From assembly GCA_905178155.1 (NCBI GenBank), contig CAJINV010000027.1:272656-336655 (forward strand): 64,000 bases of DNA, given 5' to 3'. A program made the position numbers and the translations under genes. The notes beneath the pieces were generated by a model, which saw only the letters and a program-made list of their open reading frames with translations, was not told where the DNA came from and did no database searches. Numbering within the stretch: the stretch's first letter is position 1; each line of letters opens with the position of its first letter. Shown here piece after piece: positions 2,720-26,043 of this stretch. Origin of the DNA: Amoebophrya sp. A120. Lineage: Eukaryota > Protista > Dinoflagellata.

Positions 2720-5700
2720 ATGCGGGGCATCGGGAGCAGCATGACGAGTATGCTGCGCTATCCAAGAAAAAAACGTTTTTAGTGTAAAGTTGTGATGCGC
2801 AGCATGCAAGATGATTGCGTCTCTCATGCTTGGCATGCCTCGTAGGGTCCATTAAAGGGCGTTTTCACGTACTATCTGCGCATGCCAGGTTTTTACTATC
2901 ATGCCAGACAAATTTGTAATGCTGTTCCTCCAAAAAAGTTACACCTACAATGCTTTTTTCTTGGATATGCGCTGGCGCAACTCCAGCGCGACGCCCCTGC
3001 AGGCCCAACTGAAGGAGGCGCTAAACAACAATAACTGGGGCTGTAGCATATTGTGAGGAAAATGAATCCGCGAGAACCGTATTCGATTTGGCATTTGTGT
3101 TGCTGGATTTTTAATACCTGTCCTCCGTCCGCTGAATCAGCATGAGAGAAAAAATCTTAATCTGAATATGGAAACGAGGTGGATTTTTCCTTGTGATATG
3201 GCAACACGATTCTCTACGACATCGCCAACCAAAGCAACTATTATCCAGCGTAAAAAAACTGTATCCTAAAACTACCTGAGTTGTCATGCATATAATGCAG
3301 CAGGAGTCTTTCTATGCGGCTTTTCCGCCCAGAGATACAACTCTCGTCCAAGTGTGCTGCAGACGATTTTGTTATGCAACATGCTCTCGTCACAAGAAGC
3401 AAAAGATGGGGCTGTACTAGGGAATAAGCAGTGCGTGTGCGCTGTGTATCCAAAGTTGCCCTTTGTGAGTCCAAAAACCTCTGCACAATCAGTCCAGCAC
3501 ATCAAGCCGCATCTTGAATCGGGGTTGTTCTTGGAAAAATTTTTACGTAGGGGTCCGGCGAAAATCCTCCTCTGCACGATATGCGGGCGTTCCTTGGCCA
3601 AAAGACTGCCGGGCATCGTTTGCATTTCCAGCTGGAAAATGCTGAGGGACCCGGAAGGAGGGTTTGCAAATGTCCTCCTCCGCACCGTATGGGGGCTTTC
3701 CTGGGCCCAAAAACTGGGCGACGTTTGGATTTGAGGGGGGAAATGCTTAGCGACTCGGAAGGGGGGTTGCAAAAATGCTCCCCGGCAAGGTATGCGGCCC
3801 CTTTTTGGCCCAAAAAGTGGCCGGCCTTTCGTCTCCAGCTGCAAAGGGTTGGGCACTCGGAAGGGGAGGTTGCGAAAATCGTCCCCCGCACGTTCTGCGG
3901 GCTTCAGGCGGTTTGTACTGCTTTCCGAAACCTTTTGTGTCAAGGTCGAGTGCCCGATCATGAGGCCCGCCCGATGTTATGGTCAGCAATAACCGGCTGT
4001 CCATATTGGCCTGCAAGGCGAAACGCTCACCGGGTGAGCGTTTCGCCTAAGAAGTCCATATTGGGATCTTTCCCACCACAGCACACCGTCGTGCTTCTGG
4101 CTGTTTGTGCTGCCTTTTGAAACCTTTTTTTGCCAAGTTCGAGCGCCCTTTCGTGAGGCCCGCCCGACGCTATGATCGACACAAGCCGATTATCCATATG
4201 GACCCTCAAGGCGAAACGCTCACTCGGTGAGCGTTTCGCCTAAGAAGTCTATATTGGGATCTTTCCCACTACAGCATACCGTCGTGCTTCTGGCTTGTTG
4301 TTGCTGCTTTTTGAAACCTATTCTGCCACTTTCGAGCGCCCTTTCTTGGGGCCCGCCCGACGCTATGGTCGACACAGGCCGACTATCTATATGGGCCTCC
4401 AAGGCGAAACGCTCACCGGGTGAGCGTTTCGCCTAAGAAGTCTATATTCGGATCGTTCCCACTGCAGCATGCCGTCGTGCTTCTGGATATTTGTGCTGCT
4501 TTTTGAAACCTATTCTGCCAAGTTCGAGTGCCCTTTCGTGAGGCCCGCCCGACGCTATGGTCGACACAGGCCGATTATCTATATGGGCCTCCAAGGCGAA
4601 ACGCTCACCGGGTGAGCGTTTCGCCTAAGAAGTCTATATTGGGATCTTTCCCACTGCAGCATACCGTCGTGCTTCTGGGTATTTGTGCTGCTTTTTGAAA
4701 CTTTTTTTTGCCAAGTTCGAGTGCTCTTTCTTGAGGCCCGCCCGATGCTAAGGGCGACACAGGCCGATTATTCATATGGGCCTCCAAGCCGCATCTTGAC
4801 TCTGGGTTGTTCTTGGAAACATTTTTACGCAGGATAACCACCAGCTGCAGCCGATCTTGGAGGCTATCAACCAGGTATTTAGGGGAGAGTGCATAGACAA
4901 AATGATGATCCTGTCAAGTGCATTCTATGGGACGAGCTGCAAGACAAATTATTGACTTCATTTTTCTGTAACGCATGGACAGTAGCTCCGAACTTGTGTT
5001 TCTACTGCATAAAGATGTCAAGAGCAAGAAATTTGTATTGCATGAACACGGGTTGTTCCCACCTTCATATTATTCCCACCTCCTCATCATCAAAAACTCG
5101 TTTTCTCAGGCGTTGGCCGAGCGTGACGGACGACGATGGAGGCGTGTGTGGAAGGCGCTGAACTTATCACAGGAAGAAAGTCCTTCTCCTCCGTGGTATA
5201 CTAAATGCAAAACGGAAAAAATCTTTGTCGTGCTGATTTGTCATCTTCAGAAGCCCCACTTTGCGGGCGGCCCACTTGGCATCGGTCATTTAACGTGCCA
5301 TTCTGGGATTCGTAGCCTTCTCCTGTCGTGGAGAGCTGGCAAATAGGTACTAACCCCTTCGTCCCATGGCATCATGACAAAATGATTTGTGTACACAAAT
5401 TTCGCAGCAGAAGTTTCCGTTTGGGTAGTGGGGGGAGGATTTTTCATTTTGACAAAACTTGATCGAAATCATCTTGAAGCACGGCGAAAATCCGATGTTC
5501 GAGGAGAGCATGAAGGCAGACCAGTATCCTGTGTAAAAACGCCCCTACCCCAGAGTTGTCATGCAAAATGGCATCCCTGAAATGTTTCTTATGCACGACG
5601 CCATGTTGAGGAGCATTTTGTAATGCTATCTGGAAGTTTGTCATGCTGAAATGAGGACAAGGTAGCCAATTTGTCGTGCGGTTGCACTAGCTAAACACGT

Positions 5701-8700
5701 TTACACTACGATGCCAAACTTGTCATGCGTGACTGCCAGAATTTCTGGACTTGTGTTGCAAATTTCCCATCTTGACTTTGTCGTGGGGACGTTTCTACGC
5801 AGGATAACCAGTGGCGAGTAATCTACTTTCTCGACTGGCGCTTACGGAAATGAAAATCCCTTCTCTCCTATCAAATGTAAAAATGTCTGGGTCTGGATGA
5901 AGATTGCAACTTGTGATGCTGTCTCTGCATTATACAAAAATGTGTATTGCATGACCAGCAAGAGGGCTCCAGTTTGTGCTACATGGAGAGGGTATTTCTC
6001 ATGCGGGATAGGCATCAGAAAGCCCGCTAAAAATCTGTGATGCCAGGTTACGCATTACAGGCGTCATGTGTCATGTAAAATCTGCATGACATCCAGACCC
6101 AGACATTTTTACATTTGATATCTCCAAATTCAAAACACGAAGGATTTCTCTTGCTGGACTTGTATATAGCAATCAGCTTTGTGGTCGAGCGCCCGGGGAT
6201 ACTCAGCAAACCCGGTCGCCTCGGTCTGTTTAGGTGCATTGGGCAGTGCAGCTGTTGAGCCCCCTTAACCGGCTCGGTGTCTCCTAGTACTTTCCTTCTG
6301 TCATGCAAGAGAAATAAGCTACTTGTTTTATACGCATTTTTTACAAACCAACACATCTAAACAAATTTCCACTCAGAACAATATGGGGGGGGAGATTTTT
6401 TTTTCCTGCCACAGCGCTACCAGGAGAACCAGAAGGACGTCACTGCGGGGATCCGTGACAAGGCCAAAAAGATTATCCCTGTGTAAAAATGTTGTGGCCC
6501 TAGATTTGTCATGCATATTTCCACGCCGCTGCCCAGGACGCTTCTCATGCTCAGCTGCATGAGAAGCGTTGTGTTCTCGTGGTGTTGTGGAAAAATTTGT
6601 CATGCCTTATACAGGACGAATTGGTGAATTTGTGATGCGACTAGCATAGCCATTCTTGTTACTCAGGATAAAGATCCAGCAGTTGTTGCAGGACCCGGAC
6701 CTGCTGCGAAAGGAGCGGGCGGATGCGCGACAGATCGCGAACAAGCTGCAGCTATGCATTGCAAATATCGATCTGGGTCCGGAATAAAGGTGGAACTTGT
6801 AATGCTGCTCCTACATGCGTGCGAAATCTGTATTGCATGACCAACAAATTATGTCGTAGCCTGTTTCATCTAATCCGGACTGCGTACGAGAACGCGTTCT
6901 GGAAACTTGTCATGCTTGTCTACATTCGGAAGTGTTTTCATCATGCACAGTTCAGCATCACAAATCTCCAGACCCACAAATATTTGCAGTTGATAGCAGC
7001 CGCCCTCGATGTCAGGCGGCGGTGGCGGCGGGATGCCGCAAAGCGGCTTGGCTGCAGGCCCCGGGCCATATCGCAAGAAAAAACTGTTTCACTGTGAACT
7101 TGTGATGCATACAATGGAACACAGAAGTATTTGTCTTGCCACACATGCAAGAAAGTGGATTTTTAGCTGTGTTTTCCCTTAGGAAGCTTGCGTGGCAAAT
7201 TTTTTCTGTCACGTAGAACGAACTTGTCATGCAAAACCTGCAAAATCATCACAGTGAAACAGTTTTTTCGTACGATAGGCCAGGCTACGGAAATAATGCA
7301 GGTTCGAGCTACAACGACGGCTATGGCAACAGTGCGTCGGTGTCGTACGGCTACGGCCCGACGACCACGGGAAGTGGCCTCTACGGCACCACGCAAGAAC
7401 CGATGTCAGGAGGGAGACCAGTGGACCGACCAGACTACAGCTTTCGGGCTTACGACCGCGATTTTTTGGGCGCCGGCCGTCCGGAAACCACGACGTTTCA
7501 GTCTTCCTACGCCGCCTCTGGTGCGCCGCCGTCGCTCCAGGTACCACCACCTAGTTCGGCGTCCCGAGCATTGCGACGCGACGTTCCGGAACCAAATCCA
7601 GCAGAGCCGAGTACTTCTAGCGCGGGTAATTGTCTATGTCTACAAAACATATGCAAAAATTCAGCGGTGTGCGTTTTTGTCATGTGTGTCTTGTGTCAGG
7701 TGTATGTAGTTTGATAAATGTACTAGTCTTTGTCACTACGTCGCTGAAAGAGAGTAAAAATGACACGCATGATTGATAAAAATTTTCAGATTCGCGAAGA
7801 CGGGTTGTCCAGGTTTGCGGGTGTACAGAAACGGAAGCGGATTATCATGTGAGAAATATCATAGTTGCTGGCTTGCATTTTGATGTTGTGCATGCAATTT
7901 TGAATTACAAGTCTTCGCCTTCGCGAGGAAAAGATTTTAATTTCTCATGCAGTTCTACTCCGTCACCAATTTGTTTCTTCAATCTATAGGAAAGAACAAA
8001 CCTTTTGTGCTTGCTATTTTTTGTGCAGCATTTTACAAGCGTCTTTGATGACAAAATGTACTGTCGCACGCTGGCTTCTTTCTCCGCTATCCCAGCCGAT
8101 TGCTGCGCGCGGCAGACGGAAACGTGGAGGACGCGTGCAACAAATTTTTTGCCCAGGCCAACAACGAGCCCGAGCTCGAGGCGCCACGAAGTGCCCAGGA
8201 CCAGCGGGATTCGGGGCCAGCCTCTTCCGACGAAGACGAGGAATTGGACGAGATGCCGAGCGGTAACGACTCGTCAGAGCCGGACCATAGTCCGGAGGTC
8301 GGTCCGCGTCATTACGCACAGCGAAAATGTCTGGGTCTGCGAAAAATGGAGTTTGTCATGCTATGTTTCGATCACGCAAAATGTTGTATTGCATGAGCAG
8401 GGGCAAAAAATCTGTGAAACTAGAGCATACTAGCTTGACGAAAATCGCGGGTCATCATGTAAAATCTGCATGACAAACTCCTCCAATTTTCCAGACGCAG
8501 ACATATTTGCACTGCATTGTGGTCTCCAACCCCAGATGTCAGGACAAGTAATGCCACCGCAGCATACCAATGCTTCGCAACCAGCGACGTGGGACCAGCA
8601 ACAGCGGGCACAGCAAGCGGCCAATATGCATTGCAAATACAGCTAGGTCTGGAAATAGACTGCGGATTTGTGTCATGTAGCTCTTGGACCACAAAAATGG

Positions 8701-11700
8701 AAAAAGCAACACGGGTCTTGCAACGACTTCTCCAAGCCTTTTTGCGTAGCAACAAGTAGGCAGCTTTTGGCGGTCTTGCAACACAGATTTTTGTGTGCGC
8801 GTCCCGAGCAAGCATCGCAAATTCGCTTCTTGCCTGACCCAGAGATGTTTGCAATGAATAGGCAGCGTCCGGCAGCAGCCGCAGGTACCGATGGAGCAGC
8901 GGCATATGAAATGCAAATATGTCTGGGTCTGGGAGTTTCTAAACTTGTGATGCTGTGTCTGGATTCCAAGAAAATTTGTATTGCATGACCAGCAAGAGGA
9001 CTCCAGTTTGTGCTACGCGGACGAGAGGACATTTCTCATGCGGTGCTGGCATCACAAAGCCCTCGCAAAATCTGTGATGCTAGAGGATCCATCACAGACA
9101 TCACGGGTCATTCAAAATATGCATGACAAACCTGGCAATCTTCGAGACCCAGACATGTTTGCATTTGATACGGCAGCAGCCAGCGCAACAGGGGGCGAGC
9201 CGCCAGTTTTCCCAGCCGTCAGGGTCGCAGCAGTACGGTACCGCGCTGGATGCACAAACTGGTATCAAATGTAAAAATGTCTGGTTCTGGAAGGATGCAA
9301 CTTGTAATGCTATTTTTGGATTCTAAAAAAATCTGTGTTGCATGACAGGCAATAGGAGTCCAGTCTTTGCCACGTGGAGAGGGCATTTCTCATGCAGGAT
9401 ATGCATCAAGACGCACTCAGAAAATCTGTGATGCTAGGGCATAGATCACAGCCGTCATGGGTCATGTCAGACGTGCATGACAAACAAGGTCATGGCGCGG
9501 GGACAGAGTCCCCGCGGCTGCGACCTTGCGGCTAAGAAGGGCCACCCGCGGTGGCTTTTCTTGCCCATTATGCGGCAGGTTTTTTTTTTGCGACAACACG
9601 GGGTGGCTTGGCGCTCGTGGTGCCGGCGCCCCCCTGGAACAGTGCGCCTTTTTCTGCGCCCCTGGGCGGGGCGCCCCCCCCCAAAGGACTACCCACGACC
9701 AACCGAGGGCGCGGCCGTCCGGGAGGTTGTTCTCCCGAACCAGGGCGCGCGGGCCTGTTTCTGCGCCCCTGGGCGGGGCGCCCCCCCCAAAGGACTACCC
9801 AAGACCAACCGAGGGCGCGGCCAGCCATACCAGGGCGCGTGGACCTGTTTCTGCGCCCCTGGGCGGGGCGCCCCCCCCCCAAAGGACTACCCACGACCAA
9901 CCGAGGGCGCGGCCGTCCTGGAGGCTGTTCTCCCGAACCAGGGCGCGCGGGCCTGTTTCTGCGCCCCTGGGCGGGGCGCCCCCCCCAAAGGACTACCCAA
10001 GACCAACCGAGGGCGCGGCCTTACCAGGGCTCGTGGACCTGTTTCTGCGCCCCTGGGCGGGGCGCCCCCCCCAAAGGACTACCCACGACCAACCGAGGGC
10101 GCGGCCCTCCTGGAGCCTGTTCTCCCGAACCAGGGTGGGCGCGCGGACCTGTTTCTGCGCCCCTGGGCGGGGCGCCCCCCCCAAAGGACTACCCACGACC
10201 AACCGAGGGCGCGGCCTTCCTGGAGCCTGTTCTCCCGAACCAGGGTGGGCGCGCGGACCTGTTTCTGCGCCCCTGGGCGGGGCGCCCCCCCCAAAGGACT
10301 ACCCACCCACGACCATGCGAGGGGGGGCGCGGCCACCTTCCTGGAGCCTGTTTTCCCGAACCAGGGCGCACAGAACTGTTTCTGCGCCCCTGGGCGGGGC
10401 GCCCCCCCAACAGGACTACCCACGACCAAGTGAGGGGGGGCGCGGCCTTCCTGGGGGCTGTTAGTTCGCTTCGCACTCCCGAATCAGGCCGCGCGGACCT
10501 GTTTCTGCGCCCCTGGGCGGGGTGCCCCCCCCAATGAATAGGCAGCCAACCTTTGGCCGCCGGGGTCGGGCCTGACTCTTGAAAAGTGGCCCCCGGGGCC
10601 GGGTGTTCCTTTTCCGAAGTCAGGCGGGGGGCATATTTTGGGTTGTGCAGGAGGTTTTTCTTTTTGCCGGTTCGGGTCGTGTTTGATACCCCGGAACAGG
10701 GGTCGGAACATACTCCGCAACACACCCCAGAACACACCCCGAAACACACCTCAGACCATGCCCCGAAAGCCACTCTCCGAAAGTCAGGTCCGGGGTCGGA
10801 CCCGACTCCCTAAAAGTGACCTCCGGGGCCGGGTGTCACTTTTCCGGAGTCAGGTGTGGGGTATGTTTTGGGGGGTGCAGGACGTTTCTGCCGATTCAGG
10901 TCGTGATTGATACCCCGGAACATGGGTCGGAACATACCCCCGAACACCCCCCGAAAACTCATTTTTGGGCAGTTGCTGCAGTTCAAATAGTAATCTTCCA
11001 ATCTTCCAGACCCACACGCTTTTACACTTGATAACTGGTACGTATAGCGGATTCTCGCAGTCGCAGCAGCAAGCTCAGAGTCGTGCACCCTACAGCCAGT
11101 ACGGGCAGAATTTGGGTACTACCAATCCGCTGGCACAGAATCTCTCCATCGGCGGCTCGCAGGTTATCAAAATGAAAAGCGCAGCCCCGTCTCCGGACTC
11201 GTTTCAAATGTTTGCGCTGCAAAGTTTTCAAGTGGGCGGGCTTTGTCGTGTATGCTCGGAATAAAATTCCAGTTGCTACAATATGCAAGGCTTCCGGAAT
11301 ATTATCATTTAGGAAAATTTGCAATGCAAATGTGTCCACGTGCTTCGGTCGCGAGGGCAGTTTTTATTCTGATACAGGTGCAGCAAAATCAGCTGCCATA
11401 CAACTCGACGCAATCGGCCACACTACACCCCTCTGGTATGCAAGTACCCATGGGCCAATCGGGTCCGCAACAAGGCACTGGTATCGACTGCAAATATGTC
11501 TCGGTCTGGGTAAGAGCACGCGAACTTGTCATGCTGGGTATATAGCATGACAAAGCAATGTTTTATAGAGCATGAACGCATCACAAATCTTTCGGCTGTT
11601 GTTGCAAGGTGAGTCGTGTTTTGCATGACAAACTCCCTCTTCGAGCATGACAGAAAAAATGGTCACTCCTATTCAGGCATCACAAATCTTCTTATGCTTC

Positions 11701-13711
11701 AATTTTCGCATAACATATCCAGACCCAGACATATTTGCAATGCAGGACTGGATTCGCACGACAATCGCCACCGACGTTGGTGCAGCACCAGACCTTTATG
11801 CATTACAAAAATGTCGAGCTAGTACAACTTGCATGAAAATATCTTTGGAAAGAAAATTGCAATCTGTGATGCAAATTTCGCTCGGGAAAGCAGATCTGTC
11901 ATGCATAGCTGCAATTTATACGGAGGCTCCGATACTCTTGTACGGCATAACCTTGCCACAGCAACCAAACGTCGGCTCGCAAGTTTTCGGCGGACAAAAC
12001 GTCCCAACACCGCAGCAGCAGTTCCTGATGCAGCTCCCGGCGGGTTCGCAACTGGCCCACCAGCATGTTCCGCAAACGTCCGCAAATTACCTTGGGCACG
12101 ACCCAACTGCCAGGCAGCAGCAGGTGCTGTTAAACTCGACACCGGCCGCCCAAAGTTCTGTGCAACAGAAAATGTCGGGGGGAACTACAGTGCTGATACC
12201 CAGTAGCGCGCAACAATTTGCTCCTATCGCAGGTAGCGGGCCGCAAGTTCCTCTGCAAGCCATCATGCAGACCACGCCACCGCTCCAGCAAGCACAGACG
12301 ATGGAGTCGCAGGCGATGCCGACGCAGCCGATGCAGCTGCGCGTACTACCCCAGACAGTGCCATCCATGGAATCGGTATCGACACGAAACGTGGTGCTGC
12401 AACGGCAGGTGCTAGTACCCGCACAGCCGCAACAGCAAACGCTGTTGCAGCAGCAGCCGGGCGACGCGACAACGATGGCGCAGCCGGCAGTGCGGGTCGG
12501 GCAGCACCTACAACCCGCGATGCCAACATTGCAGTACAGACCCGTCCTTTTACCGCAGCAGCTTGTGGCCTCCCAAATAATGCAACCACAAGCGTTGCAG
12601 CAGCGAGCCATCCTAGCCCCGCAGCAGATGGTACCATATTCTTCAGAAAAGTACACCCAACATGATACCAGGGAAAAAAAATGAGCCTAGTCATGCTTCC
12701 TTCTGTGTCACAAAAATATTCTGTAGCATGTTCATGACAAACCTAGTGGGCATCTTTTTCATGCTGGAGCACATCACATCATTCATCACGCATGACAGGA
12801 GCTTACCGCAGTTGTAGATCAGCAGCACAAATTTTTTCGTGCGAGAAAAAAAACAGCAACACAAATTGATTTTTCCCGGTTGTAGTGTGGGTGTAGTTTT
12901 CTGAAGGATGTACCTGTACGACCACAAATGGTCATGGCGCCGCAGCAAGTAGCGATCCAAAACCCGCAGCGGCAATCGTTTGTCCCGCCTGCAGGTCTAC
13001 CAATGAACTCGCAGCTGCAAAGCAGACCACCCATGGCACAGTACGGACAGGCAGCAGGAGGTGTACAAGCGAACCTCGGCGTTGCTGCAAGCCCGAGAGG
13101 AGTACTTCGCCCAGCCGCGGGAGAGGGAAACCAGATCAGCACGCCTCGGGAACCGGGCGGCCGGGGGGTATTTGAGTCGTTGCAATGTCTGCTTGTGATG
13201 CATATGATACTTTACTCACCGCATGAATGTCCTGTCCCGTTCCTGTATGTGCTTTCGTGCATGACAAAGAACTTCCAAATTTGCATACCATGCATGCTTC
13301 CGAATCATGCATTACAAAGTTAAAGTTATTGATTTTACAAATCAGCATTACAACTACATTCCAGGCAGCGACCAACCCCTTCGCTAAGTACGACGTGCGG
13401 CGTTTTTTGAATGGTATCCCGGGTAAAAGTGTCGCCAGCCCGTATCTGTCATGCAAATTTGCATGCCGAAAATGCAGTTCCTCATGCGCAGCTACATGAG
13501 CTGCAACTTCTAATTGTGTTTTGGAATTTGTCATGCCAGAATAAGCAGGAGAAGATCGGTTTGTGATGCGACTGAGCTAGCTAAATACGATTACGCTGCG
13601 AGCCCCACCTTGTCATGCGCAACAGCCAAAACTTGTTCATTTGTGTAGCAAATTCCCAATCCTGACTACGGGGTGGAGACGCTTTTACACAGGATGAACG
13701 GCACCCCATAG
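2720..13711 (+). CDS. Epsin-like protein (N-terminal ENTH domain, UBA-like segment, Q/P-rich tail with NPF), about 20 introns
   Basis: Joining exons after removing element+TSD gives MRGIGSSMTSMLRWRNSSATPLQAQLKEALNNNNWGCSNTILYDIANQSNYQLQPILEAINQALAERDGRRWRRVWKALNLIEIILKHGENPMFEESMKADQWRVIYFLDWRYQENQKDVTAGIRDKAKKIQQLLQDPDLLRKERADARQ, matching the ENTH consensus (WG.S, W+HV.KAL.L, +R+KA+.+..LL.D...LR.ER). Later exons include RLLRAADGNVEDACNKFF (UBA-like) and TNPF; stop TAG at 13709-13711. Junction at ~7843-8100 unresolved. Confidence 0.88.
2759..2967. mobile_element. Introner (tatccaagaaaaaa TIR)
   Basis: Right TIR ttttttcttggata; perfect TSD tgcgc; restores MLR|WRN. Confidence 0.9.
3049..3198. 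mobile_element. Short introner
   Basis: tattgtgaggaaaa / ttttccttgtgata; TSD tagca/tggca; restores ENTH WGCS|NTIL. Confidence 0.8.
3242..4836. mobile_element. Introner family B carrying a 1.2-kb satellite
   Basis: tatccagcgtaaaaa / tttttacgcaggata; TSD actat/accac. Confidence 0.8.
3551..4790. repeat. Composite tandem repeat (~110-bp units, then about four ~192-bp units)
   Basis: aaggcgaaacgctcac(c/t)cggtgagcgtttcgcc hairpin recurs at ~4015, 4208, 4401 and 4593. Confidence 0.9.
5165..5454. mobile_element. Introner (C-like, degenerate)
   Basis: TSD gaact/aaact; restores KALN|LIEIIL. Confidence 0.75.
5525..5806. mobile_element. Introner family B
   Basis: tatcctgtgtaaaaacgcccc / ggggacgtttctacgcaggata; perfect TSD accag. 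Confidence 0.92.
5843..6413. mobile_element. Introner (C-like) hosting a nested introner
   Basis: Perfect TSD gcgct; restores DWR|YQENQ. Confidence 0.8.
5869..6120. mobile_element. Nested introner family A
   Basis: Perfect 29-bp TIR tatcaaatgtaaaaatgtctgggtctgga; perfect TSD tctcc. Confidence 0.93.
6474..6670. mobile_element. Introner (B-like, shortened)
   Basis: tatcc / ggata ends; perfect TSD aagat. Confidence 0.85.
6753..6995. mobile_element. Introner family A
   Basis: Degenerate A-type TIR; perfect TSD gcagc. Confidence 0.88.
7069..7277. mobile_element. Introner (tatcgcaagaaaaaactgtttcactgtga TIR)
   Basis: Right TIR tcacagtgaaacagttttttcgtacgata; perfect TSD ggcca. Confidence 0.9.
8625..8860. 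mobile_element. Introner family A
   Basis: Degenerate TIR; TSD gccaa/ggcag. Confidence 0.8.
8905..9170. mobile_element. Introner family A
   Basis: A-type TIR; perfect TSD cggca. Confidence 0.92.
9263..11033. mobile_element. Introner family A carrying a 1.5-kb GC-rich insert
   Basis: A-type TIRs; perfect TSD actgg; restores AQTG|TYSG. Confidence 0.9.
9648..10535. repeat. GC-rich tandem repeat (variable unit up to ~120 bp)
   Basis: cctgtttctgcgcccctgggcggggcgcccccccaaaggactaccc repeated about 9 times. Confidence 0.92.
11165..11374. mobile_element. Introner with TSD caggt (GT-AG compatible)
   Basis: tatcaaaatgaaaa / ttttattctgata; perfect TSD caggt. Confidence 0.88.
11482..11746. mobile_element. 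Introner family A
   Basis: A-type TIRs; perfect TSD actgg. Confidence 0.87.
11797..11949. mobile_element. Short degenerate introner
   Basis: tatgc / gcata ends; perfect TSD acctt. Confidence 0.8.
12637..12910. mobile_element. Introner (tattcttcagaaaagtacaccc TIR)
   Basis: Right TIR gggtgtagttttctgaaggatg; TSD tacca/tacct. Confidence 0.85.
13415..13696. mobile_element. Introner family B
   Basis: B-type TIRs; TSD aatgg/aacgg; lies before the last 3 codons of the epsin-like gene. Confidence 0.85.
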
Positions 13712-14403
13712 TCAAGGAGGTGCACAGGACCGTGTTTTTTTCAAGTACATCACAGCAGCTTTGCGGAAAGCCAAGTTCTTTCCCGTTTGGCCTGCGAGTG
13801 CATCAGGGACTCGTTGTTTTCACCAGTCTTTACCGTTTCGAAAAATTTAGACAGGAATCTTCGAAAAAAATCAAGCAATATAATTCCAATGTTATGACAA
13901 TGAAGGAGGTACAACTTGGGCAAAAAAATTATCATCTGCAAAAAGATACAGTAGTTGCTCTATGCTACACATGTGGTTACAACATGGCAGGGGATTTTGA
14001 TGTCAGAAGCAGGTAGTTTATTTGCTGTACAATTCGTGACCCGAAAGAAGTCACGTCTGTCCTGCTAGCGTTTTCGTGCCTTTACAAATTCGGCTTCATC
14101 TCAAGAACGACCAGCGGAAATAAAAATCCAGCGGGAGAACGCGCGCCCTGAATCATGTCTCCCGCGAGGACACATATTTTTCTAGATTTCAAAAGGTACG
14201 GCAGATATCTTGTGCTTACCATGTTCTTCTTGCTTTCCCCTCGGAATGCTGGTATCCGACGTTGAAAAAAAGCTTTCTCTTCCTTCAAAACGTTCCTTTT
14301 TCGCGTTACCACCTTGTTTTTGTGGGCAATAGTGTAAATCGTTTTGGTTTTTATGATCAGAAAACCACTGTACAAGATGGCTCCCTTTTCGCACGGCCTG
14401 CGC

Positions 14404-17400
14404 ATGGCGCGTACATTTCTAATGCGGCTTTGCTGCTTATGCAAATTCGCCATCGCCGATTTTGACTTCGAAAGCCTGTTTGGCAACGTGGGACTTGAAT
14501 CGTGGGATAAATATGCAGCCAGCGACGCGAATGGCGACGACGCGAATGATCTCGCGGAAAAGTTGGAAGAATTCTCCAATGGTAGCTACGAGTACGAGAC
14601 CGTGAGATTAAGCTGGGACGGCATTTTGTTAGTCGACTGGAAAACACTCGCACACACAAGAAACGCACGCCGGCCCCACTTGCCTCGCTCGTTCTAGTGG
14701 TTCAATTTTCCCAATTCGAGCAAGCAAGCGACGCAGGGTCGCGTGCTCCGTTCGCATTCTGTTTTGAGATGCACGAAGAAGAATCAGCGCACTCTGCCCA
14801 TGAGTTCCACGAACGGCGCGCGGCGTGGCGTGGGCTCGTGAAATTTCTGGGACGAATCTCAGCCACAGTGATGGCGGCAATATTAGTTCTCAGCCCCAGG
14901 AGGCTCAGTCGTGTGGGCCATATCCAAAAAGGGTCGCTCGAAACCTAATTTAGCTTCTGCCGCTCGGGCTTGCAGAAGGAAATAGGATAAGCGACAGCAG
15001 CGCCCTGCGGTTTTGCACCTAGTAAAATGCCGGGAAACTGGCGGGGCCTTTTCTGTAAGATCTAAGACACGGCGGACCGTTTTGTCGGTCTTGCACTTTA
15101 AAACAGGCCACGTTGGCTTTCAGCCCCATCGCCTCCGCTATCCCGGTAACCCTAGCGAGGCCGCACTGACTTGGGAGAACACCACCGGGGGAATAGAATA
15201 AGAAAATAGCTATCGGCCAACATTCCGGTCCGCTGGGTTTTTCGTCGGGTTGTGGTATTTCAGGGGGGGAAAATCAGGCGCCGACTGGGGCTGTCGTGTT
15301 GCGTGTGTGCGAAGTCGCTTTCCATAGCCGCCAGATGCCGGGCGACGTACCGAATAGGGAACAGTTAGGCGACTACGACTTTGACGGCGACGGGGCTTTT
15401 GGGCTCTCAGAGATGAAGATCATGCACGACCTGAAGCTCGGCGACGCCAACGGAGTTGGTGAAGGCGTGGCGAAGCTCCTGTGCCCCAGCGATTGTGACG
15501 TGTCGAAGTACGACCTGGACGAGAACAACCACTATTCGCACACTGAGCTGAAGTTTCTTGCGAGGTCAATAAAAGACCAGGGCGGTGAGCTCCCAGACTG
15601 GAAGGGGTTTGTTGGACTTTGAACACACCTGCCACACTGAGTGCCTGAAGCTTCTAGCTGGCGAGATGCCTCGCAATCCCCCAGCGCTTTAACCCCTCAG
15701 CAGACAGGGCGAAAGCCTCGGGCTGCGTTGCATCCATCCCGTGGCGCCTCAGCGTTCAAGGCGCACCACCGCCATCATGCCATCAAGCTGGGCTCTGGAG
15801 GTACCTCAGACCCGCCATTCAGGTCTCGAGCCATTTCCGACCTCCCTCCACGTCGTCGCTGATGGATTTGATTCGGGACCGAGGTCCTGGGTAGAGGTTT
15901 TACTCAGGGCGGCGGCTCTGGATAAAGTACCTGCTCAGGATCTGTATACCCTGAAAGCAAGGACCCAGAGTGGGGCAGCCCACTCCGCGACGGCTACAGA
16001 TGGGAAGGTAGACCCAGATGACCGCCTGCCCATTCTGGGAAAGGTTTTTATTCAGGGCGGCGGTCCTGGATAAAGTTTGCACCCAGGGCGGCAGTCCTGC
16101 GGCTCAGGTCGCGAACAGGATCTGAACCCGTCTTCAATTCATCTGTCATTATTTGCATTTGTGGAACAGAGGACGGCTCGGGACCTCATAGAAGCTTCAG
16201 GCCTGCGTGGGGGGAGGGTTTCGATCGCATGACCGAAAAACTTTGACAAAGACGCGGCCAAGGTTGTGTATCCCGACCAGCTAACCAAAATCGACAGCGG
16301 CAAAGACTTTATAGACATCTTCGACACCGATACCGACGGCTGGTATTCCTTCCACGAGTTGAAGGCGATGCAACAATTTCCTAAGCACGGTCCGCAGCAC
16401 CTGAAAGAGTACTACGACATGGACGGCGACGGGGAACTTAGTCACTACGAAGTCAGGCTCGCAATGAGCAGGGCCGCGCATGTAACGGTCGGCGCCATCT
16501 ACAACGAGCAGGGCGGCGACGTTCATGCGGAACAACGTTCCGACTTGGAGCTGTTTACGAAGATTTCATCCTCGGGTGAAGACCACAAACTCGAACCAGA
16601 AGAGGCACGACTGGCGCTTTGGCACGAAGGTGAGAAATATGATCGGGCCGAGTACAACCATGAGCAGAACGAGCAGCTCGCTGAGCACGTAAAAGCGGGA
16701 GGACACAACTTAGCCTACCACGACATCATGAGTGACACGAATCACGGCCACCACAACCTCGCCCATGCAAAGTGGCAAAAAGTACACGACGTACTGCAAA
16801 TAAACGGCTACCTGTCGGAGAAGGCGTTCGAGCTGCGGGACCTGGATGGCGACAAGAAGATTAGCAGCAACGAGCTCAATATGATCGTGAGAAAAAACTG
16901 TCTCAGTCTCAACTTGTAATGCGCAACTTGTTCCTTCAGACAGTTTTTTGTCGTGCTCGACATGCAATCAAAGGAAACTCCGTACGTGTTTTCTCTTGCA
17001 TGTAAACAGTCACAGATTTTGCGTGTGATGCTAAGGAAATTTGTGTATCTGAAACTGCAAAGGTCTGAGACAGAGAACGTGTTTTCGTACGATACCCAAA
17101 GTCGCCGGCTTGCTGGGAAACGATCTACAAACGAAAGGCAAGATAGCCGTCGACAAAGCAAAGGTTTTGCTCCAGAGCATGAGCGCGACGAGCGACAACC
17201 CTTTGAAGCAGTGTACGGACGAAACAGGGTTCTGCGACTTCAACGGCGACGGATCTTTGACGGCTGAAGAAATCAAGCTTGCGAAACTCTGGGACGACAG
17301 TCCGCCCACTGCAAAAGTGAGTACGATTCTGGGAGATATCTTCCCCGACGCCACGGATTCGGAGATCAAAGGAGCTGACTTTGACGGTGACGGTGTATGG

Positions 17401-20400
17401 AATGTAAACAGGTCTGGGTCTGGAAAGGAGCTGTGATGCTGAATGGTCAGGATTGAGTCCGCCTTTAAATGCAGTGAAGCATGACAAATTATTTATAGAA
17501 CGCTTTCTCATGCGTGGTGCGCATTACAAACTGCGACAGTGTTGCATCCGTGAGGTACTTCTGTTGCTTATGCAATACCAATTTTTCTGGAATGCGGGAC
17601 ACGCAATACCAGATTTTGCACATTTCCAGACCCAGACGTATTTGCAGCGCATACGGTATCCTGTTGAACAACGTACCCCCTCTACACTTGCCACACAGAT
17701 TTGCTTGTCCCGCACAATTCTCATGCCGCTACCCACGGAAGCCGTTTTCCCCATGGGAGCCGTTTTCTGGTGGTGTTTGGAAATTTGTCTTGCGTTGTGA
17801 TCAGGATCAGAACGTCGGATTGTGATGCGGATGAACTAACTAGACACGACAGTCTTGCATGGCCAAGCTCGTCATACGTGAGCGCCAAAACCTGTCGATG
17901 TTTGTGATGTCCAGCCGATTTACAATCTTAACAAGGGGGGCCCGGACGTGTGTTTTCACAGGATGAACGGGCACCTGTCACAGAAAGAAATCGCGCTCCT
18001 GACTTTTGTATCAAAAAGACAAGCGCCCCACCACAGGATGTGGAACACATATATACACCCGACCTATAGACCATAACATAGTAGCCTGCGTCACAAATCG
18101 TTTTTTTCCACCCGTTATTCTGTCTTTTTCCTTTTCTCAATGTAATTCATTTTTTGTACGTTCTCTGTGCTGTATAGTTGTCTTGTCTCCAGAACACATA
18201 CTCCGGGGTGTGGGAACGCCCAGGGACACTTCGCCGGGGAACATTTCCCACATTGTATGCATCAGCATGACAAATTTTTAGCCCAGAGCAGCGACACTCT
18301 ACGTTGCACGATATCTGTCATGTCCTGGCGCGTTAGAGTCTGAACGAAAATGCGTCGCGTTCCCTCGATGCTACACAAAATCAATACAAACTGGCCGGTC
18401 GTCTGGTGGTGGGGCACTCTTTTCATTTTCATACTTTGAGCAGCAAGACCCTGACGATTTTGACCCGGACTCAGCAGCCAATAAGAAGTATCTTGACTAA
18501 AAATGTCCCAACCGCAGAGTTGCCATGCGGATTCTCAGTTGCAGGAAGATTTGTAATGCGCATCCCCACGTTGGGAATTCTTTGGCGTGATTTTTGATGT
18601 TGTAATAACACGATAGGCCGACGGCTCTGCGATCCACGGCTGTGCTTGCTAGCTTGCACTACACTACAGAGGAAAAATTGTCATGCGTAACTCCCAAAAC
18701 TTGATGGGTTGCGTAAACCACGTACCCATCTTGACTCTCGGGTGAGGACGTTTTTAGACGGGATAAAGAGTTGCTCCCAGCTATCCTCGGTAGCGATCAT
18801 CGCTTGGACTCTTACAAAATGCTGGATGGCGATGACAAGAAGCTCAGTCTGGAGGAGCTGCGGCTCGCTGTAAAACATCCGGAGACGAAGGATCTGCTGA
18901 CGGCGCAGGATCTTCACACGGTTGCCGACGCGATGTTTCCATCCGTTATCAAACTGAAAAGTGCCGGCCCCCAGAAAATACCGCGCGACGATTTTGTCTT
19001 GTGACGTTTCTCCATGAGGCTTTTTCGTCTTGCACAGAGATAATGCGAGTCGGCATACCATGACAGACGATAGTGCCTGTACTCTGCCTCTGTGCAAGGC
19101 AGAAGAACTTCGCTATTCTGGGTTGAAAACTAGAGTTGCTGCTACACAGATGGGTGTAAATATGTTTCTACAGAGTGAAGAACAGTGTTTGTATTGCAAA
19201 AGAACCAGAAGTTGCGCAATACAAACACTTTCCCGGTCTGTGGCGGGTGGAGCAATTTTCAGTTTGATAATAAGGTCCGATAACGCACACATGCTCGACT
19301 TTAATGGAGACGGAAAACTCGAGAACAGTGAATTGCTATCCAAAAAGAACATAAAAAGTGCATTGTTGGTGTACCTCTGTCTTGCAGAATCTATGCATCT
19401 TACGGCCAGGCTACTTGCAGATAAGTAAATGGCTGCACGTACCAGAGATGCATGGTAATTTTTTTGTATACATGCAGCTCTAATTTGTCGTGGTGCCGTC
19501 CCAAAAAGGTGTGCCCAAATGTGGAGGTTCTTTTCTTGGATAATTACTGGCGGCTGGGCAATTGGGGGCGCTGGTGAACACCAACGGTAAAGCGGTTATC
19601 CAAGGAAAAAAGGGTTACAGTATACACATTTGTCGGAGTTTCTGCATGACAAAGAAAACCTGTGATGCGCAGACTATAAGGGAAAACACGATTGAAATGA
19701 GGCTGGCAAGCGTTTTCTGCATGACAAATGTTACCTGTCTTGCTTGTTTCGCAACACAGTGCGTAACTGTAACACTTTTTTCTTCGCATACCGGTAGACC
19801 TCGAGTTATTGCAGGACCAGCTGGACGCGCTTCCGTCGGGTTTGCGGTATTGCAAGGAAAACGCCCACCTCCCCATTTTGAAAACGTATCTTCTGAAAAT
19901 TTGTGATGCGGATTTCGACCACAAACCCTGTCTGTCTTGCGAGAAGGCAAATCCAGGCTCTCTGCTACGCTATGCAGGCGATTTGTAATGCTGTAAGGAC
20001 TACAGGACAGCCGTCTACCATGCTAGGCGCCTACACCAAAGGGCCCCTATCTCGGCTGGCGATCTGCGTGCAGTCCTCTACTGCAAGACAAATCTGATTC
20101 GTGTACGCAAATCCAGCATCACAGATTTCCTTTTCGATATAGGGAGGGGGGATTTTTCCTTTTGATTTGCGGCAAACTGCGCTGACGGGAATATCCTGCG
20201 ACGGCGACCAAAACTTCGACCTGTGGGAGCTCGAGCTTTACGTAAAGGCGGGCGGATTGACGACGGAAAAGGTGCACGATTCGGCAATCCGTGGCATCTT
20301 GGATCAGGCCAGCGCTACAACCATCTCCAAAGAAGAGTTCGACAAAATCAACTTTGTAACCACGGGCCCGAAAGAAATCACCGCAGAGCTTCCGATGGAG

Positions 20401-23400
20401 TGGCCCGACTTTATCGTGAAGAAAAATCTCCCCCGCTTTATTGCTCTGAAAGGAAATTATCTCTCATGCTGGAATTCTGTACGCAGGTCAGTATTGCATT
20501 GCTAGAAGGCAAGAAGGAGATTCACCCTTGGCCGTTTTGGCAGGCAATTTGTAATGCTATTCCGGGCAATGTAGTGCCCGCCTGCCAAGCGGAATACGCA
20601 ACGCGTTTCCGTGCCAGACAGCAATACAGTTCGAACCTCCCCTCATCTCCCAGCACCACGGCAACTTGGTTTATTGCGATCACAAATCGTGCTTTCTACG
20701 AATTTCGTTTCAGTGTGGGCTGGGGACGACAGGTTTTTTCGCTTCGACACACTTCCTATCAACTGTAAAAATGTCTGGGTCTGGAAGATTCTGACACTTG
20801 TCATGCACGTTTTGCACTAGCCATGATGTCTGTAATGCATACCCTAGCAATACAGATTTTTTGAGGGCTTCTTGATGCGTATTCCGCATGACAAATGCCT
20901 TCTCAGCGTAGCAAAAATTGCATTCCCTTTTCTACTCATGCAATACAGATTTTTTTGGAGGCCAAACGCAGCATCACAAGTTCTATTCTTTCCAGACCCA
21001 GACATTTTTGCATTTGATACTTCCTGCGGAAACTCGACTCGGGGACGGGAAACGATGATATCAAATGCAAATATGTCTGGGTCTGGAAGATTACAGACTT
21101 GGCATGCGCATTTTGCATGATCCATGATGTCTGTGACGCATGCCGTAGGATCGCAGATTCTGTGAGGGCTTATTGATACCTATACCGCATGAGAAATGCC
21201 CTTCCGCATGGCAAAAACGGAACTCCTCTTGCTCCCCACACTAAGCAGATTTTTGTAGAATCCAAAGGCAGCAGCATCACAAGTTGCAACCTTCCAGACC
21301 CAGACATATTTGCACTCGATAGATGACGGCAAGGTGCAACTGTCGGAGCTCCAAGACTACCTGGTGGACTTGAACGGCGTTCCCCAGCCTGGCATGTCGC
21401 TGGGCTCCGTAGCAAACGCGATCCCGTATACGCCGGCTTCGCCTCTGGCTTTAGTTGGCCTGGCGGCGGGCGGCGGGGCTGCTTTCAGCAGAGTATTTTC
21501 AAGTAAACCGAGCCGGAAGCCGATCCCACTCTCGCCGAAAGCGCGGAGGGAGCGCGCGGCGCAACAAGCGGAGGCCGAGGCCACAGAAAGCGACGATGTT
21601 GGCAATGATGCTGGTACAACTCCAGCAGGAGACGCCCTCCAGTACCGATACGGCCATCTGCCGCCACCAACAGTAGTCGGACCAGCGCCCGCACCCTGGG
21701 TACCGCCGAGACCCGTGCCCTACGTCAAGCCCCCCGTGCCGGTGAAACAGACCCCCGCTCCGTCCCCCGAGAACCATCGAAAAGGCGGTCGCAGCCGGTC
21801 GATATTCAATATCCTGGGTAAAAACGTTCCCACCTTAGGGTCAAGAGGGGGATTTGGCTACACAAACCAACGAGCCTTGTGTGTTGCGCATGACAAGTTC
21901 CGGCCCGTGGTGCACCACCCGTGTTTAGCTAGTGCAGCTGCATGAGAAATGCATCAGCTCAAGCTCCTTCTACTGTGACAAAGGCTAACCCCAAAAAACC
22001 CCTACAACATGCCTGTCATGCCGCTCCACATGAGACACGTTACCGTTGCAGTTGTACAGATTTGCATTCTACCTTCCCTGCGTGACAGCCATCTGCGGCC
22101 GTTTGCAAAGGGGGAGGCAAAGTGTGCCGCACTTCTGTTTAGCATGACAACTCTAGGGTGGGGACGTTTTTACTCACGATATATAAGGAAGGGACGGACA
22201 TCCACACTGGAAATAGGTTGATAGCCTGCTCAGATGTTACAGTAACAGTCTTCAATGCTACAATAAAGTCTTAGTTTTGTCCTGCATGATCACCAGCATG
22301 AGTACTAACATGCAGAGACTTGCGCTTTTCGCAATACAAATTTCGTCGAATGCTGCTTCGGTTCGGCGTTCCAGACGTTGTCATGCGCCTTTCTGTGATG
22401 GCGGACCAGAGCACGCAGTTTTTGCATCACAAATTGCAGGGAATTGTATGGATGTACTTTTCTCGTGGGTAGCGAACAACTCAGCACAGACGGCACAGAA
22501 GCAGAAGAGACGATCAGCCACGAGAGAGACGCTCGCGGGCAGCGAGCAACTCAGCACCGGAGAAGAAGAGACGGCGCAGACGTAGCGGGAATACCAAGTT
22601 TAGCTTCCTCGAGGACGGAGCCGTGGAACCAGCCCGGGTATTCCAGGAACCCACCCTCGCGTCCCGTGCGCCGTTCGGCGAAGAGGCACGGCATGGGGAC
22701 CACGGCACGGAACACGCCGTTTCCACCGCTGGCAACGAACCTAGGGAGGGCGCCGACGCGAACGGGCTCAACGTCTATCCAGTGCAAATTTTAGTGGATC
22801 TGGAAAAATGGTACGTGGATTGCTTGTCTTGTATTCCCGTATTAAATCTGTGTTGCATGATGACTAAGAAAAGCGCCGCGGCCGTTTGTGTCATATGAAA
22901 ATACAGTTTGTAATGCGCACTATGCATGAAAAAACACTTGAAATATTCGTCATGCCTGGCTTCACTAGGAAGGCTATTCAATTATGCCCACGCAGAATCA
23001 CCAGTTTCCAGACCCAGACATATTTGCAAGGCATACCGCCGCAGACGAGCAGACGGAGGACGGCAGTACGGTGGAAGGAAGTACGGCGGATGGGAGTACG
23101 GTGGAACCGGACGGGCCCAACGATGGCGCAGACGAGCAGCCGGTGGAGGGAGGTACGGTGGAGCCGGACGGGCGTAATGACGGCGCAGACGAGCAGCCGG
23201 TGGAGGGAGGTACGGTGGAACCGGACGGGCGTAATGACGGCGCAGACGAGCAGCCGGTGGAGGGCGGTACGGTGGAACCGGACGGACGCATCGACAGCGC
23301 TGGCGAGCAGACGGTGGAAGGAAGTACGGTGGAACCGGACGACGGCCCAAGCGAGCAGACGGTGGAAGGAAGTACGTTGGAGCCGGACGGGCCCCGCGAC

Positions 23401-23646: not shown

Positions 23647-26043
23647 CGGTGTAAGAGTCTCTACGGGGGAAAGTAGTGATTCTGGATTTATTGATCCGGA
23701 GTTCTGTTGAATATTCTTTGACATCTATTTTTTTTGCTACAGTACACATTATAACAAGGATTGAGCGACTCCATCAATCAGGAGTAAAGGGAAAAAAAGT
23801 TCAGATAATCTTACTGTTACTCATCTCAGCGTGCACAAGTATTTACAAAAAAAAGTTGCAGATTTTATAGGCCCGGCAAACGATAAAAGCGAAAGTGGGC
23901 ATGTATTTTTTAATCGCTGTGCCGGCCAAAGTGCCACACGGTAAGTATTTCAATGCGATCTAACTAATGATTTCCTTGCCGTTTTTCAGAACAAATAAGT
24001 TTGACGAAGAATTTTGTTGCAATAATTTGATTTTTCCCTACCAAAGACGACCAAACATTGAACTTTCGACGCCGTAGAAAATATAATTCCGTCGTACGGA
24101 TTCGGATACATACGGAAACGAAGTGTCTATCCTATTCAAGAGATGAGTCCGCGCCACCTCCTAACCTACTGAAGAGGAACAACATGGTAACAACATAAAT
24201 GTTGTTTGTCATGCTGTGATGAGCTGCTGATAAATTTGAGACAGTTGTTGCTTTCGCTAGCATGGCAGACTTCCAGTGTACAAAATCCTACCGGGGTTTT
24301 CGATAGAGGAACGTGCTGCAAGTCAGCAACCACGATGCGCCGGCGTTCTGATGCGAGCCCCGATAGCTTCTGCCGGAGCTCCTTCGGGATTTTTGTCGCG
24401 GGCTGGGGGGCTGCAACAAAGCTACCCTTTGTCTCATGTAGTAGTCATCTAGTCGAGCAAAATTGTAACGCCTTTTTATCTAAAATGGCAAAGCAACCGC
24501 TGGTCAGGAGACCTTTAAAAACCAATTTTTACAACTAGAAACCAGCAAAAAGGATAGCGAAAAGAAAGAAGCATAGGCGGAAATTCGTCTACAGCACGGC
24601 TCGACGACGCTCTGCATTTAGTTATAATCCGACCTGGCGAAATACACTTTTCACAAAACTTCATTCTTTAATTTTTTCCTTGTGTTGGAAGCATTTTCTC
24701 AGCATAAAGTAGAACGCGTAGCCGGCGCTTCGCAACAGCGATTGACCCGTTGGTGAAATATAGTGCTCTCCGACGGGTTTGCGCTTTAATTACCTGAGCG
24801 ATTTTGCTCGTGTAGATTTACAGGTATAAAATATAGGACGATTGACTGATCGGGAAAAAATAAGCATTAAGACGCGAAAGTCGCGCATAACCAAAAGCTG
24901 CACCCTGCCTCCACCTTTTTGTGCTCTGACCCAGTTTACATCTGCCTAATTTTTAACATGATGCTCTGCCCACCCGTGTAGCTGACCACCTTTTTTTTTT
25001 GAAGCTGCTTATTTCTAGCTGAAACCAAGCGGCTCACTTACTTCTGATAAACGAATAAACGATTCTTTATGATCCTGGTTTTTTTCTTTCTTTAGCACAA
25101 CAGACTTGGGCTGAAGATGTCCACCTGCTAGAAATTGCTAGTGAAGCTGCAACCTTTTAGTTTTACTATTGGTAAATGCGTCGCCTGGTATCTTTAACGA
25201 GTGAAGAACAGGAACGATAGAGCTTTTCGGCTCACAGGACAACTGGCGCTCCGGCCAAACATCGCGATGCAACGAGCTCCATAGCAGGGCAATAGGCCCG
25301 ATCTTGGGGCGAGCGAGAAGTAGTTTTCTGAAATTTTCCATACGATTTAAAGCGAAACGAGACCTGTCCACGCCAATTCCAAGCAAGCATCTGAAGCTGC
25401 TCGTAGCTTATTCAAACACCCAAGAAAACGTGTAAGTGTATCGGACAGAGCTATAAAAATCGACGACTTTTTTTTTTAAGCATGGGTTGCACGTTCAAAT
25501 TTCGCAATGTACCCTAGCCGATTGTAAATTTCGCCGCGCCGGCCACTTTTAGACGCACCCTTGTACAACAATGTAGACGAGTGAATGAACTGCATCGACC
25601 CGTTTGTGTCACTCCACAAGCTGTTGCACAGGACACCTTTATCTCGTACTACAAACATGCTGGCGATACGAATGTACTGCAAAAATGCACACCTGTATAT
25701 ACTTGCTAAGCAGCGGTGCCTCTTGGCAAGAAGCCGCTATTACAGTCAGCACTCTGGCGCTTTACTGAGAAGCTTTTTGATGAAAAACAAGAATTCGTGT
25801 TCCCCAATGTACGCATTTGTGTCATCACCGTGGGCATGGCAAGGGTGATACATTTTGAAGTATCTACACTACATGAACCATCCGCCAGATGTTCCGTGGT
25901 TTCCATGCTTCCAACGCGTTCACACTGCAACGAGCGAAGCACCCTAGTGCGGCTGGAATCACATTTGAATTTCCACATTGACTCTGACATTTTATCCTGA
26001 CAAAACCATGCTCCTGTCATTCCGGTTGCCCGTTACGCACACT

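What the first reader, a model, noticed from the sequence alone, without database searches (positions are those of the whole stretch)
8905..21321. The same introner family works as an intron in either orientation
Seen in sequence: family A copies at 5869, 8905 and 9263 contain catttctcatgcgg...aaaatctgtgatgc, while copies at 20757 and 21059 contain its reverse complement (cagatt...ccgcatga(c/g)aaatg), yet both host genes are on the + strand. Family C shows the same (1670-1988 vs 19848-20167). Established: spliceosomal signals are strand-specific. Inference: recognition is symmetric (RNA stem or dsDNA-bound factor).
Basis: partly seen in the sequence, partly recalled or inferred. Interest (0 to 1): 0.8.

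Follow-up and report, generated by a model that had tools for sequence, protein, structure and literature searches.

The report
Reversible transposon introns, one-way cut register
Known transposon-derived introns of the marine parasite Amoebophrya sit in either direction inside genes and are cleanly missing from the spliced sequences either way, likely because their mirror-image ends pair into an RNA stem that is cut at one fixed position set by the direction of transcription.

Summary
The inversion is real. Family A copies at 8905 and 9263 are opposite to those at 20757 and 21059 (70-76% identity). Both host genes are + strand Amoebophrya A120 genes. Spliced contigs match removal of element plus one 5-bp target duplication exactly (765/765 and 701/701 nt). 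Corrections: the 5869 copy is nested inside another intron, and the 1670 copy is not shown to be an intron. These are the introners of Farhat et al. 2021, and either-orientation introners are published for Polarella and Aureococcus. Terminal inverted repeats make both orientations present the same ends, so orientation independence is expected. Not found in my searches: (i) no orientation bias (A 37:29, B 9:7, C 8:7 in a second assembly, direction inferred); (ii) one cut register, N|TAT...ATA|NNNN, fits 35 of 35 introns, while its mirror image is excluded by 11. The ends are symmetric but the cut follows transcription, which argues against DNA-level excision or a symmetric DNA-level cut. Non-GT-AG introns keep strong end-to-end pairing (median -29.6 vs -14.8 kcal/mol). 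Most likely a divergent spliceosome uses the stem as bridge and ruler (inferred).

The parts
8905..9170 (+). Family A introner, forward; 5-bp target duplication; intron 8904-9174 in the fixed register (AT..GC ends)
   Evidence: skip 271 = element + 5; 765/765 sum
9263..11033 (+). Family A introner, forward, interrupted by a repeat-rich insertion (about 9486-10960); spliced as 1776 nt
20757..21019 (-). Family A introner, reverse orientation in a + strand gene; intron 20756-21023 (CT..TC ends)
   Evidence: joint skip 611 with 20412; 701/701 sum
21059..21321 (-). Family A introner, reverse orientation; intron 21058-21325 (AT..TG ends); interrupts an EF-hand-like loop
   Evidence: contig piece resumes at 21322; skip 268
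5869..6120 (+). Family A copy nested inside an outer introner (5843-6413); not itself a junction of the mature mRNA
   Evidence: (skip 576)
19848..20167 (-). Family C introner, reverse relative to the 1670 copy; intron GT..CG
   Evidence: (skip 325)
1670..1988 (+). Family C copy with inverted repeats and a target duplication; intron status not shown
   Evidence: outside P0001 and upstream of the inferred contig start
27388..27666 (-). Family B introner, reverse, in gene P0003
   Evidence: skip 284
28031..28316 (+). Family B introner, forward, in the same gene P0003; its mismatched duplication bounds the cut to offset -2 or -1
   Evidence: skip 291
18947..19269 (.). Introner with a fully decayed duplication (5 of 5 mismatches) but intact arms; pins the cut at exactly 18945/19274
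17394..17965 (.). Nested pair: an A-like element (17396-17653) inserted 2 nt into the 5' arm of a family B element; removed as 577 nt in total
2720..13700 (+). Host gene 1: epsin-like protein (ENTH + UBA-like domains), annotated protein P0001
14353..23645 (+). Host gene 2: EF-hand protein, annotated protein P0002 (3' end approximate)
26008..28950 (+). Host gene 3: annotated protein P0003, no Pfam hit (3' end approximate)

Best explanation
These are miniature inverted-repeat transposons that insert in either orientation with a 5-bp target duplication and are removed together with one duplication's worth of bases, likely by a divergent major spliceosome that uses a predicted stem between the two terminal repeats to bring the ends together and fix the cuts. 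SHOWN: the anatomy (TAT-N7-AAA arms, 5-bp duplication); precise removal in both orientations; one register, 1 nt before the 5' arm and 4 nt after the 3' arm; ends mostly not GT-AG. INFERRED: that the stem forms in vivo and replaces U1/U2AF recognition; that the invariant U at +2 is read like the U of a normal GU donor; that the chemistry is spliceosomal (lariat). Orientation independence follows because flipping the element leaves both arms and the stem unchanged. The 1+4 split removes exactly one duplication, so the mRNA is restored at any target.
For: Precise removal: 30 of 43 introns are simple elements with skip = element + 5 as listed; the rest are nested, interrupted or degenerate. Contig sums are 765/765 and 701/701, while run X5 contigs run unspliced through such elements. 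Register: offset -2 fits 35 of 35, -1 is excluded by 5, -3 by 4, the mirror -5 by 11. Polarity: +2 T 38 of 38 vs partner A 30 of 38 in non-GT-AG introns; with symmetric scoring 38 of 39 vs 30 of 39, p=0.014. All nine predominant A120 non-canonical motifs in Table S4 of PMC7789003 have T second. Stem: end duplex median -29.6 kcal/mol in 38 non-GT-AG introns vs -14.8 in 5 GT-AG introns (p=0.004); -25.2 in the 10 with 2 or more duplication mismatches (p=0.02); ends of different introns pair at median -14.2. Machinery: U2/U4/U5/U6 and 83 of 89 spliceosomal proteins found, U1 RNA undetected (PMC7789003 section 10). Four GT-AG introns begin GTAT like the arms.
Against: No lariat, branch point or knock-down data exist in my calls. 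No conserved branch-site-like motif is visible (position -9 is G 21, T 10, C 9, A 3 of 43). G.U versus A.C mismatches show no sense-strand excess: 55 vs 40, p=0.15; 159 vs 162. Terminal-base polarity did not replicate in the young second-assembly set (1 vs 3, p=0.63). Whole-intron folding gives near-zero in-register arm pairing for 8 non-GT-AG introns. Arm complementarity is also expected from transposition alone, and the GT-AG group is only 5 and is older. Most register bounds come from annotated proteins, probably built from RNA of the same project; only a few come from contig ends. In 6 of 35 cases the bound is to one or two positions; most are uninformative.
Confidence: 0.58

Rival explanations
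1. A spliceosome-independent protein endonuclease plus ligase recognises the terminal RNA stem and cuts 1 nt before and 4 nt after it (tRNA/IRE1-like logic, recalled; a similar question is open for euglenid nonconventional introns).
For: Fixed ruler-like offsets from a stem. No GT, no AG and no clear branch motif. U1 RNA undetected. Euglenid inverted-repeat introns leave as circles without a typical lariat (PMC11282704 section 6).
Against: The invariant +2 T matches the spliceosomal donor. GT-AG introns with the same GTAT start suggest one machine. The spliceosome is otherwise nearly complete. No candidate enzyme was sought.
Confidence: 0.2
2. The spliceosome reads linear, strand-specific motifs in each arm (nTAT at the 5' end; a T-tract and ATA at the 3' end). 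The stem is a by-product of transposition.
For: Positions -15 to -17 are T in 37-41 of 43 and -7 is A in 39 of 43. No G.U bias. Several introns lack a predicted in-register stem.
Against: Own-partner pairing is retained in old non-GT-AG introns and weaker in GT-AG ones. 18947 keeps 7 of 7 pairs in the variable middle of the arms despite a fully decayed duplication.
Confidence: 0.14
3. A factor bound to the double-stranded DNA repeats (e.g. a domesticated transposase) marks both ends for co-transcriptional removal.
For: An internal 8-nt motif is about 45-fold enriched (22 per kb vs 0.44 shuffled and 0.51 in exons), shows no strand bias (446 vs 408) and points inward from both ends, like a DNA-binding site.
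Against: The cut register follows transcription, so a separate polar RNA step is still needed. Two spliced non-canonical introns (14628, 15611) carry none of these motifs. The motif is explained by mobilisation.
Confidence: 0.05
4. The elements are cut out of DNA (programmed elimination) rather than RNA.
For: Orientation independence and exact restoration of the target would follow naturally.
Against: DNA-like run X5 gives long unspliced contigs across such elements. A symmetric DNA cut would not give a register tied to transcription in all 35 cases. 499 joints were not displayed, so rare DNA joins are not excluded.
Confidence: 0.03

Closest known systems
Amoebophrya A120 introner elements (Farhat et al. 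2021, PMC7789003; I read the abstract, sections 10, 11, 12, 16, passages, and part 3 of the supplement)
   Same: Same organism label. Arms start TAT + 7 variable bases + AAA; 3-5 nt direct repeats; non-canonical ends; predicted hairpin; U1 undetected.
   Different: The passages I read do not discuss element orientation relative to transcription, and Fig. [quoted passage not shown] Here one register fits 35 of 35 and both orientations occur about equally. Figures S19-S25 are images I could not see and may show part of this.
Either-orientation introners of Polarella glacialis and Aureococcus anophagefferens (bioRxiv 10.1101/2020.10.14.339549; I read part 1 of 4 and passages; Huff et al. 2016 recalled, not held)
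   Same: Transposon introns with target duplications that make introns when inserted either way round.
   Different: Those use GT/GC/GA..AG sites taken from the duplication or element end, and show an orientation bias. Here 38 of 43 are not GT-AG and no bias was detected.
Euglenid nonconventional introns (review PMC11282704, section 6)
   Same: Non-canonical ends, terminal pairing offset from the junctions, duplication-like repeats, probable MITE origin, unknown mechanism.
   Different: Their pairing is +4..+6 with -8..-6; here it is +2..+4 with -7..-5. Circular excised forms are reported for euglenids and untested here.
Fritillaria borealis non-canonical introners (review PMC11282704; passages of PMC13326754 and its preprint)
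   Same: Non-GT-AG introns from inverted-repeat transposons, handled by a modified major spliceosome.
   Different: Their splice dinucleotides are fixed by the repeat ends (AG-AC/AG-AT). Here +1 and the last four bases come from the target and are free.
Stwintrons of Hypoxylaceae (PMC8469720, abstract only)
   Same: Symmetric introns with terminal inverted repeats; an inner intron interrupting the donor of an outer one, as at 17394.
   Different: Canonical U2 sites and no target duplications.

Membership tests
Amoebophrya A120 introner element | Terminal inverted repeats starting TAT, 7 variable bases, then 3 or more A | tested here: met
Amoebophrya A120 introner element | 3-5 nt direct repeat at the exon/intron borders | tested here: met
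   5-bp duplication, perfect in 16 of 38 non-GT-AG introns and one mismatch in 12
Amoebophrya A120 introner element | Repeated family and spliced out of transcripts | tested here: met
   RNA status of X1 is the tool's guess
Amoebophrya A120 introner element | Host genome is Amoebophrya A120 | tested here: met
   three exon queries match annotated A120 proteins at 100%
Canonical U2 spliceosomal intron | GT..AG (or GC..AG) termini | tested here: not met
   5 of 43 GT-AG in the window; 7 of 196 in register and 13 of 196 at any slide in the second assembly; none of the four spliced family A copies
Canonical U2 spliceosomal intron | Lariat intermediate and branch point | not testable with these tools
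   no raw reads cover the locus; no clear branch consensus
Polarella/Aureococcus-type either-orientation introner | Creates introns in both orientations | tested here: met
Polarella/Aureococcus-type either-orientation introner | Near-canonical splice sites recruited from the duplication or element end | tested here: not met
MITE (non-autonomous DNA transposon) | Short, non-coding, inverted repeats, target duplication, many copies | tested here: met
   173 of 196 have stops in all three sense frames
MITE (non-autonomous DNA transposon) | Cognate autonomous transposase with the same ends | tested here: inconclusive
   an integrase-core ORF at 63281-64000 (rve E 6e-7, below the curated cut-off) is cut by the window end and was not linked to these repeats
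Euglenid nonconventional intron | Excised as full-length circles, after conventional introns | not testable with these tools
   no data

The most novel reading that the evidence does not exclude
Most Amoebophrya introns are removed by a spliceosome-independent, stem-measuring RNA cut-and-ligate system that cuts 1 nt before and 4 nt after any terminal hairpin, exactly undoing a 5-bp transposon duplication in either orientation and so making exon insertions harmless on a genomic scale.
Probability: 0.2. Interest if true: 0.85.

Novelty: already known. Interest (0 to 1): 0.42.

Why it matters
The elements and the hairpin idea are published, and reversible introners are known elsewhere, so the finding as written is not a surprise. 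What remains useful is a concrete rule. How more than 60% of Amoebophrya introns are spliced without GT-AG or detectable U1 is an open question, and the literature treats the cut position as variable. A fixed, transcription-polar 1+4 register predicts the true intron ends for tens of thousands of introns. That makes lariat mapping, snRNA pairing searches and minigene tests directly designable. It would also explain why any 5-bp target in either orientation is tolerated.

Tried and rejected
No whole genome was held, so no genome-wide tabulation in this strain. No RNA holder listed: none of the 7 runs that hold the stretch is on record as RNA. Direct junction rows for 19280-29100 were not obtained, so the register there rests on annotated proteins. 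My first sequence-only gene models missed the contig lengths (1740 vs 1793; 1274 vs 1263). They matched only after adding a missed exon, correcting one element end and recognising the nested 17394 pair, in line with the annotated proteins. Canonical GT..AG splicing inside the arms (which would keep the frame and add 15 or 39 nt) was considered and rejected: the length sums leave no room. G.U versus A.C test: inconclusive in both sets. Terminal-base polarity in the second assembly: inconclusive, with one case against (L004). Simple ORF-length thresholds discriminated poorly: 179 precise vs 167, 161 and 164 controls of 196. Papers not held: Roy et al. Curr Biol 2023 and Huff et al. 2016 by a recalled id. 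Literature searches gave no paper stating orientation counts or a fixed register for Amoebophrya; subscription papers and figure images are not covered. Earlier scan findings: none.
Full report
Observation. Self-BLAST confirms family A copies at 5869, 8905 and 9263 in one sense and 20757 and 21059 in the other (70-79% identity, E 1e-37 to 1e-73), and family C 1670 versus 19848 inverted at 74%. Because the ends are inverted repeats, I repeated the test on interiors only: the best orientation scores 99-157, the other 16-35, and 300 shuffles reach at most 24. Family B also splits into two senses, with 27388 and 28031 opposite inside one gene.

Host and strand. Three exon queries each returned one protein at 100% identity, labelled Amoebophrya sp. 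A120. They thread onto + strand exons. P0001 has ENTH and UBA-like domains, P0002 has EF-hands, and P0003 has no Pfam hit. No whole genome was held.

Are they spliced? Of 4 runs laid on 1600-21590, X1 (RNA by the tool's guess) gave two contigs in separated pieces; X5 gave contiguous DNA-like contigs plus many junctions from other copies; X8 and X9 laid 4 and 0 reads. The gaps between displayed pieces imply 765 nt of exon in 7625-11949 and 701 nt in 17390-21321. The model from the annotated proteins, removing element plus 5 nt, gives 765 and 701. One piece resumes exactly at 21322. My first sequence-only models missed and needed three corrections. The contig is not a copy of the annotation: in 12631-13699 it needs a 197-nt GT-AG intron where the annotation skips 211 (my arithmetic). 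It may still come from the same project, so it is not fully independent.

Anatomy. Each element has arms reading TAT, seven variable bases and an A run, flanked by a 5-bp duplication. An internal 8-nt motif occurs at 22 per kb versus 0.44 in shuffles and 0.51 in exons, at least twice in 191 of 196 elements, without strand bias (446 vs 408) and pointing inward from both ends. I read it as a transposase-binding site (inference). Of 43 introns tabulated in three genes, 38 are not GT-AG.

Register. Where the two duplication copies differ, the protein or contig shows which copy survives. One cut, 1 nt before the 5' arm and 4 nt after the 3' arm, fits 35 of 35 arm-bearing introns with a bounded range. 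One base to the right is excluded by 5, one to the left by 4, and the mirror register by 11; 18947 pins it exactly. Most of the 35 have perfect or near-perfect duplications and are uninformative. All genes here are + strand and elements lie both ways, so the register follows transcription, not the element. The +2 T is kept in 38 of 38 non-GT-AG introns and its partner A in 30 of 38. Symmetric scoring, to reduce my ascertainment on TAT, gives 38 of 39 versus 30 of 39, p=0.014. The nine predominant A120 motifs of Table S4 in PMC7789003 all have T second, though aligner preference may contribute.

Orientation at larger scale. Whether it is the same strain is not known. A symmetric detector found 282 elements in 145 merged stretches, 29 in window 1-44000 and 1 in a shuffle. 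A codon model called direction correctly in 29 of 29 cross-validated 4-kb window chunks. I kept 196 of 282 elements, in 63 stretches, dropping short stretches, weak direction calls and weak arms; 97 could be assigned to a family. Relative to inferred transcription: A 37:29 (p=0.39), B 9:7, C 8:7; same-family pairs within a stretch were 13 same and 10 opposite. Precise removal gave a longer open frame than both 1-nt shifts in 26 of 37 forward and 21 of 29 reverse A copies (p about 5e-6 and 2e-5 against one third). There is no RNA for this set. In these young copies, terminal polarity was 1 versus 3 (not significant) and G.U versus A.C 159 versus 162.

Stem. The arms of 8905, 20757 and 21059 pair with mean probability 0.91, 0.91 and 0.57 on the sense strand, but 8 non-GT-AG introns show near zero in whole-intron folds. 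End-only duplexes are stronger in non-GT-AG introns (median -29.6, n=38) than in GT-AG introns (-14.8, n=5; p=0.004), also for the 10 with older duplications (-25.2; p=0.02); ends from different introns give -14.2. This suggests pairing is kept where canonical sites are missing, with small numbers and age as a confounder.

Mechanism. Flipping an element with inverted repeats leaves the transcript's two arms and their stem unchanged, so orientation independence needs no symmetric reader. The polar 1+4 cut removes exactly one duplication. I favour a divergent major spliceosome using the stem as bridge and ruler and still reading U at +2 (0.58), over an endonuclease-ligase (0.20), linear arm motifs alone (0.14), a DNA-bound marker (0.05) or DNA excision (0.03). 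The chemistry is untested.

Known versus new. Farhat et al. (PMC7789003) describe these very elements, their repeats, the hairpin and the missing U1. Either-orientation introners are reported for Polarella and Aureococcus, with near-canonical sites and an orientation bias. Euglenid and Fritillaria introns are the nearest non-canonical parallels. Eight literature searches found no statement of orientation counts or a fixed register for Amoebophrya; supplementary figures S19-S25 are images I could not see and may bear on this. Verdict: a real feature of a known system; the fixed polar register is the addition worth following up.

Noticed in passing
window 17394-17965: An A-like element sits 2 nt inside the 5' arm of a family B element. 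Removing the inner one in the fixed register restores a perfect B arm, suggesting two-step, twintron-like splicing.
   Followed up: partly
window 20754-20755: Under the fixed register, a 2-nt microexon lies between the 20412 and 20757 introners, whose duplications overlap.
   Followed up: partly
window 14628-15330 and 15611-16235: Two long GT..CG introns, displayed directly in the X1 contig, with no duplication and no internal motif but end duplexes of -26 and -23 kcal/mol; possibly old introners.
   Followed up: partly
window 13168-13364: The contig length implies a 197-nt GT-AG intron instead of the annotated 211-nt skip. This would change the frame and give the epsin-like protein a C-terminal NPF motif (typical of epsins, recalled), so annotation P0001 may be wrong at its end.
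   Followed up: partly
window 28429-28719 and 28754-28940: Annotation P0003 reads through what looks like an introner (arms and near-perfect duplication); the true C-terminus is probably different.
   Followed up: no
window 4875-5109, 13168-13364, 26314-26489, 26551-26686: GT-AG introns that begin GTAT like the arms but have decayed 3' arms: possibly introners that became canonical.
   Followed up: partly
window 45892-56153: Retrotransposon-like element with about 1.06-kb direct terminal repeats, 95% identical, and long - strand coding regions seen by eye.
   Followed up: no
window 63281-64000: Open frame with an integrase core match (rve E 6e-7, below cut-off), cut by the window end; a candidate relative of the integrase-like inverted-repeat elements noted for A120 in PMC12130899 (passages).
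   Followed up: partly
window 3520-4795 and 9486-10960: Tandem-repeat-rich insertions inside introners (family B at 3242, family A at 9263); introns of 1600 and 1776 nt are still skipped in the annotated model.
   Followed up: no
window 58200-60100: Tandem arrays of roughly 140-nt and 115-nt units, seen in the sequence.
   Followed up: no
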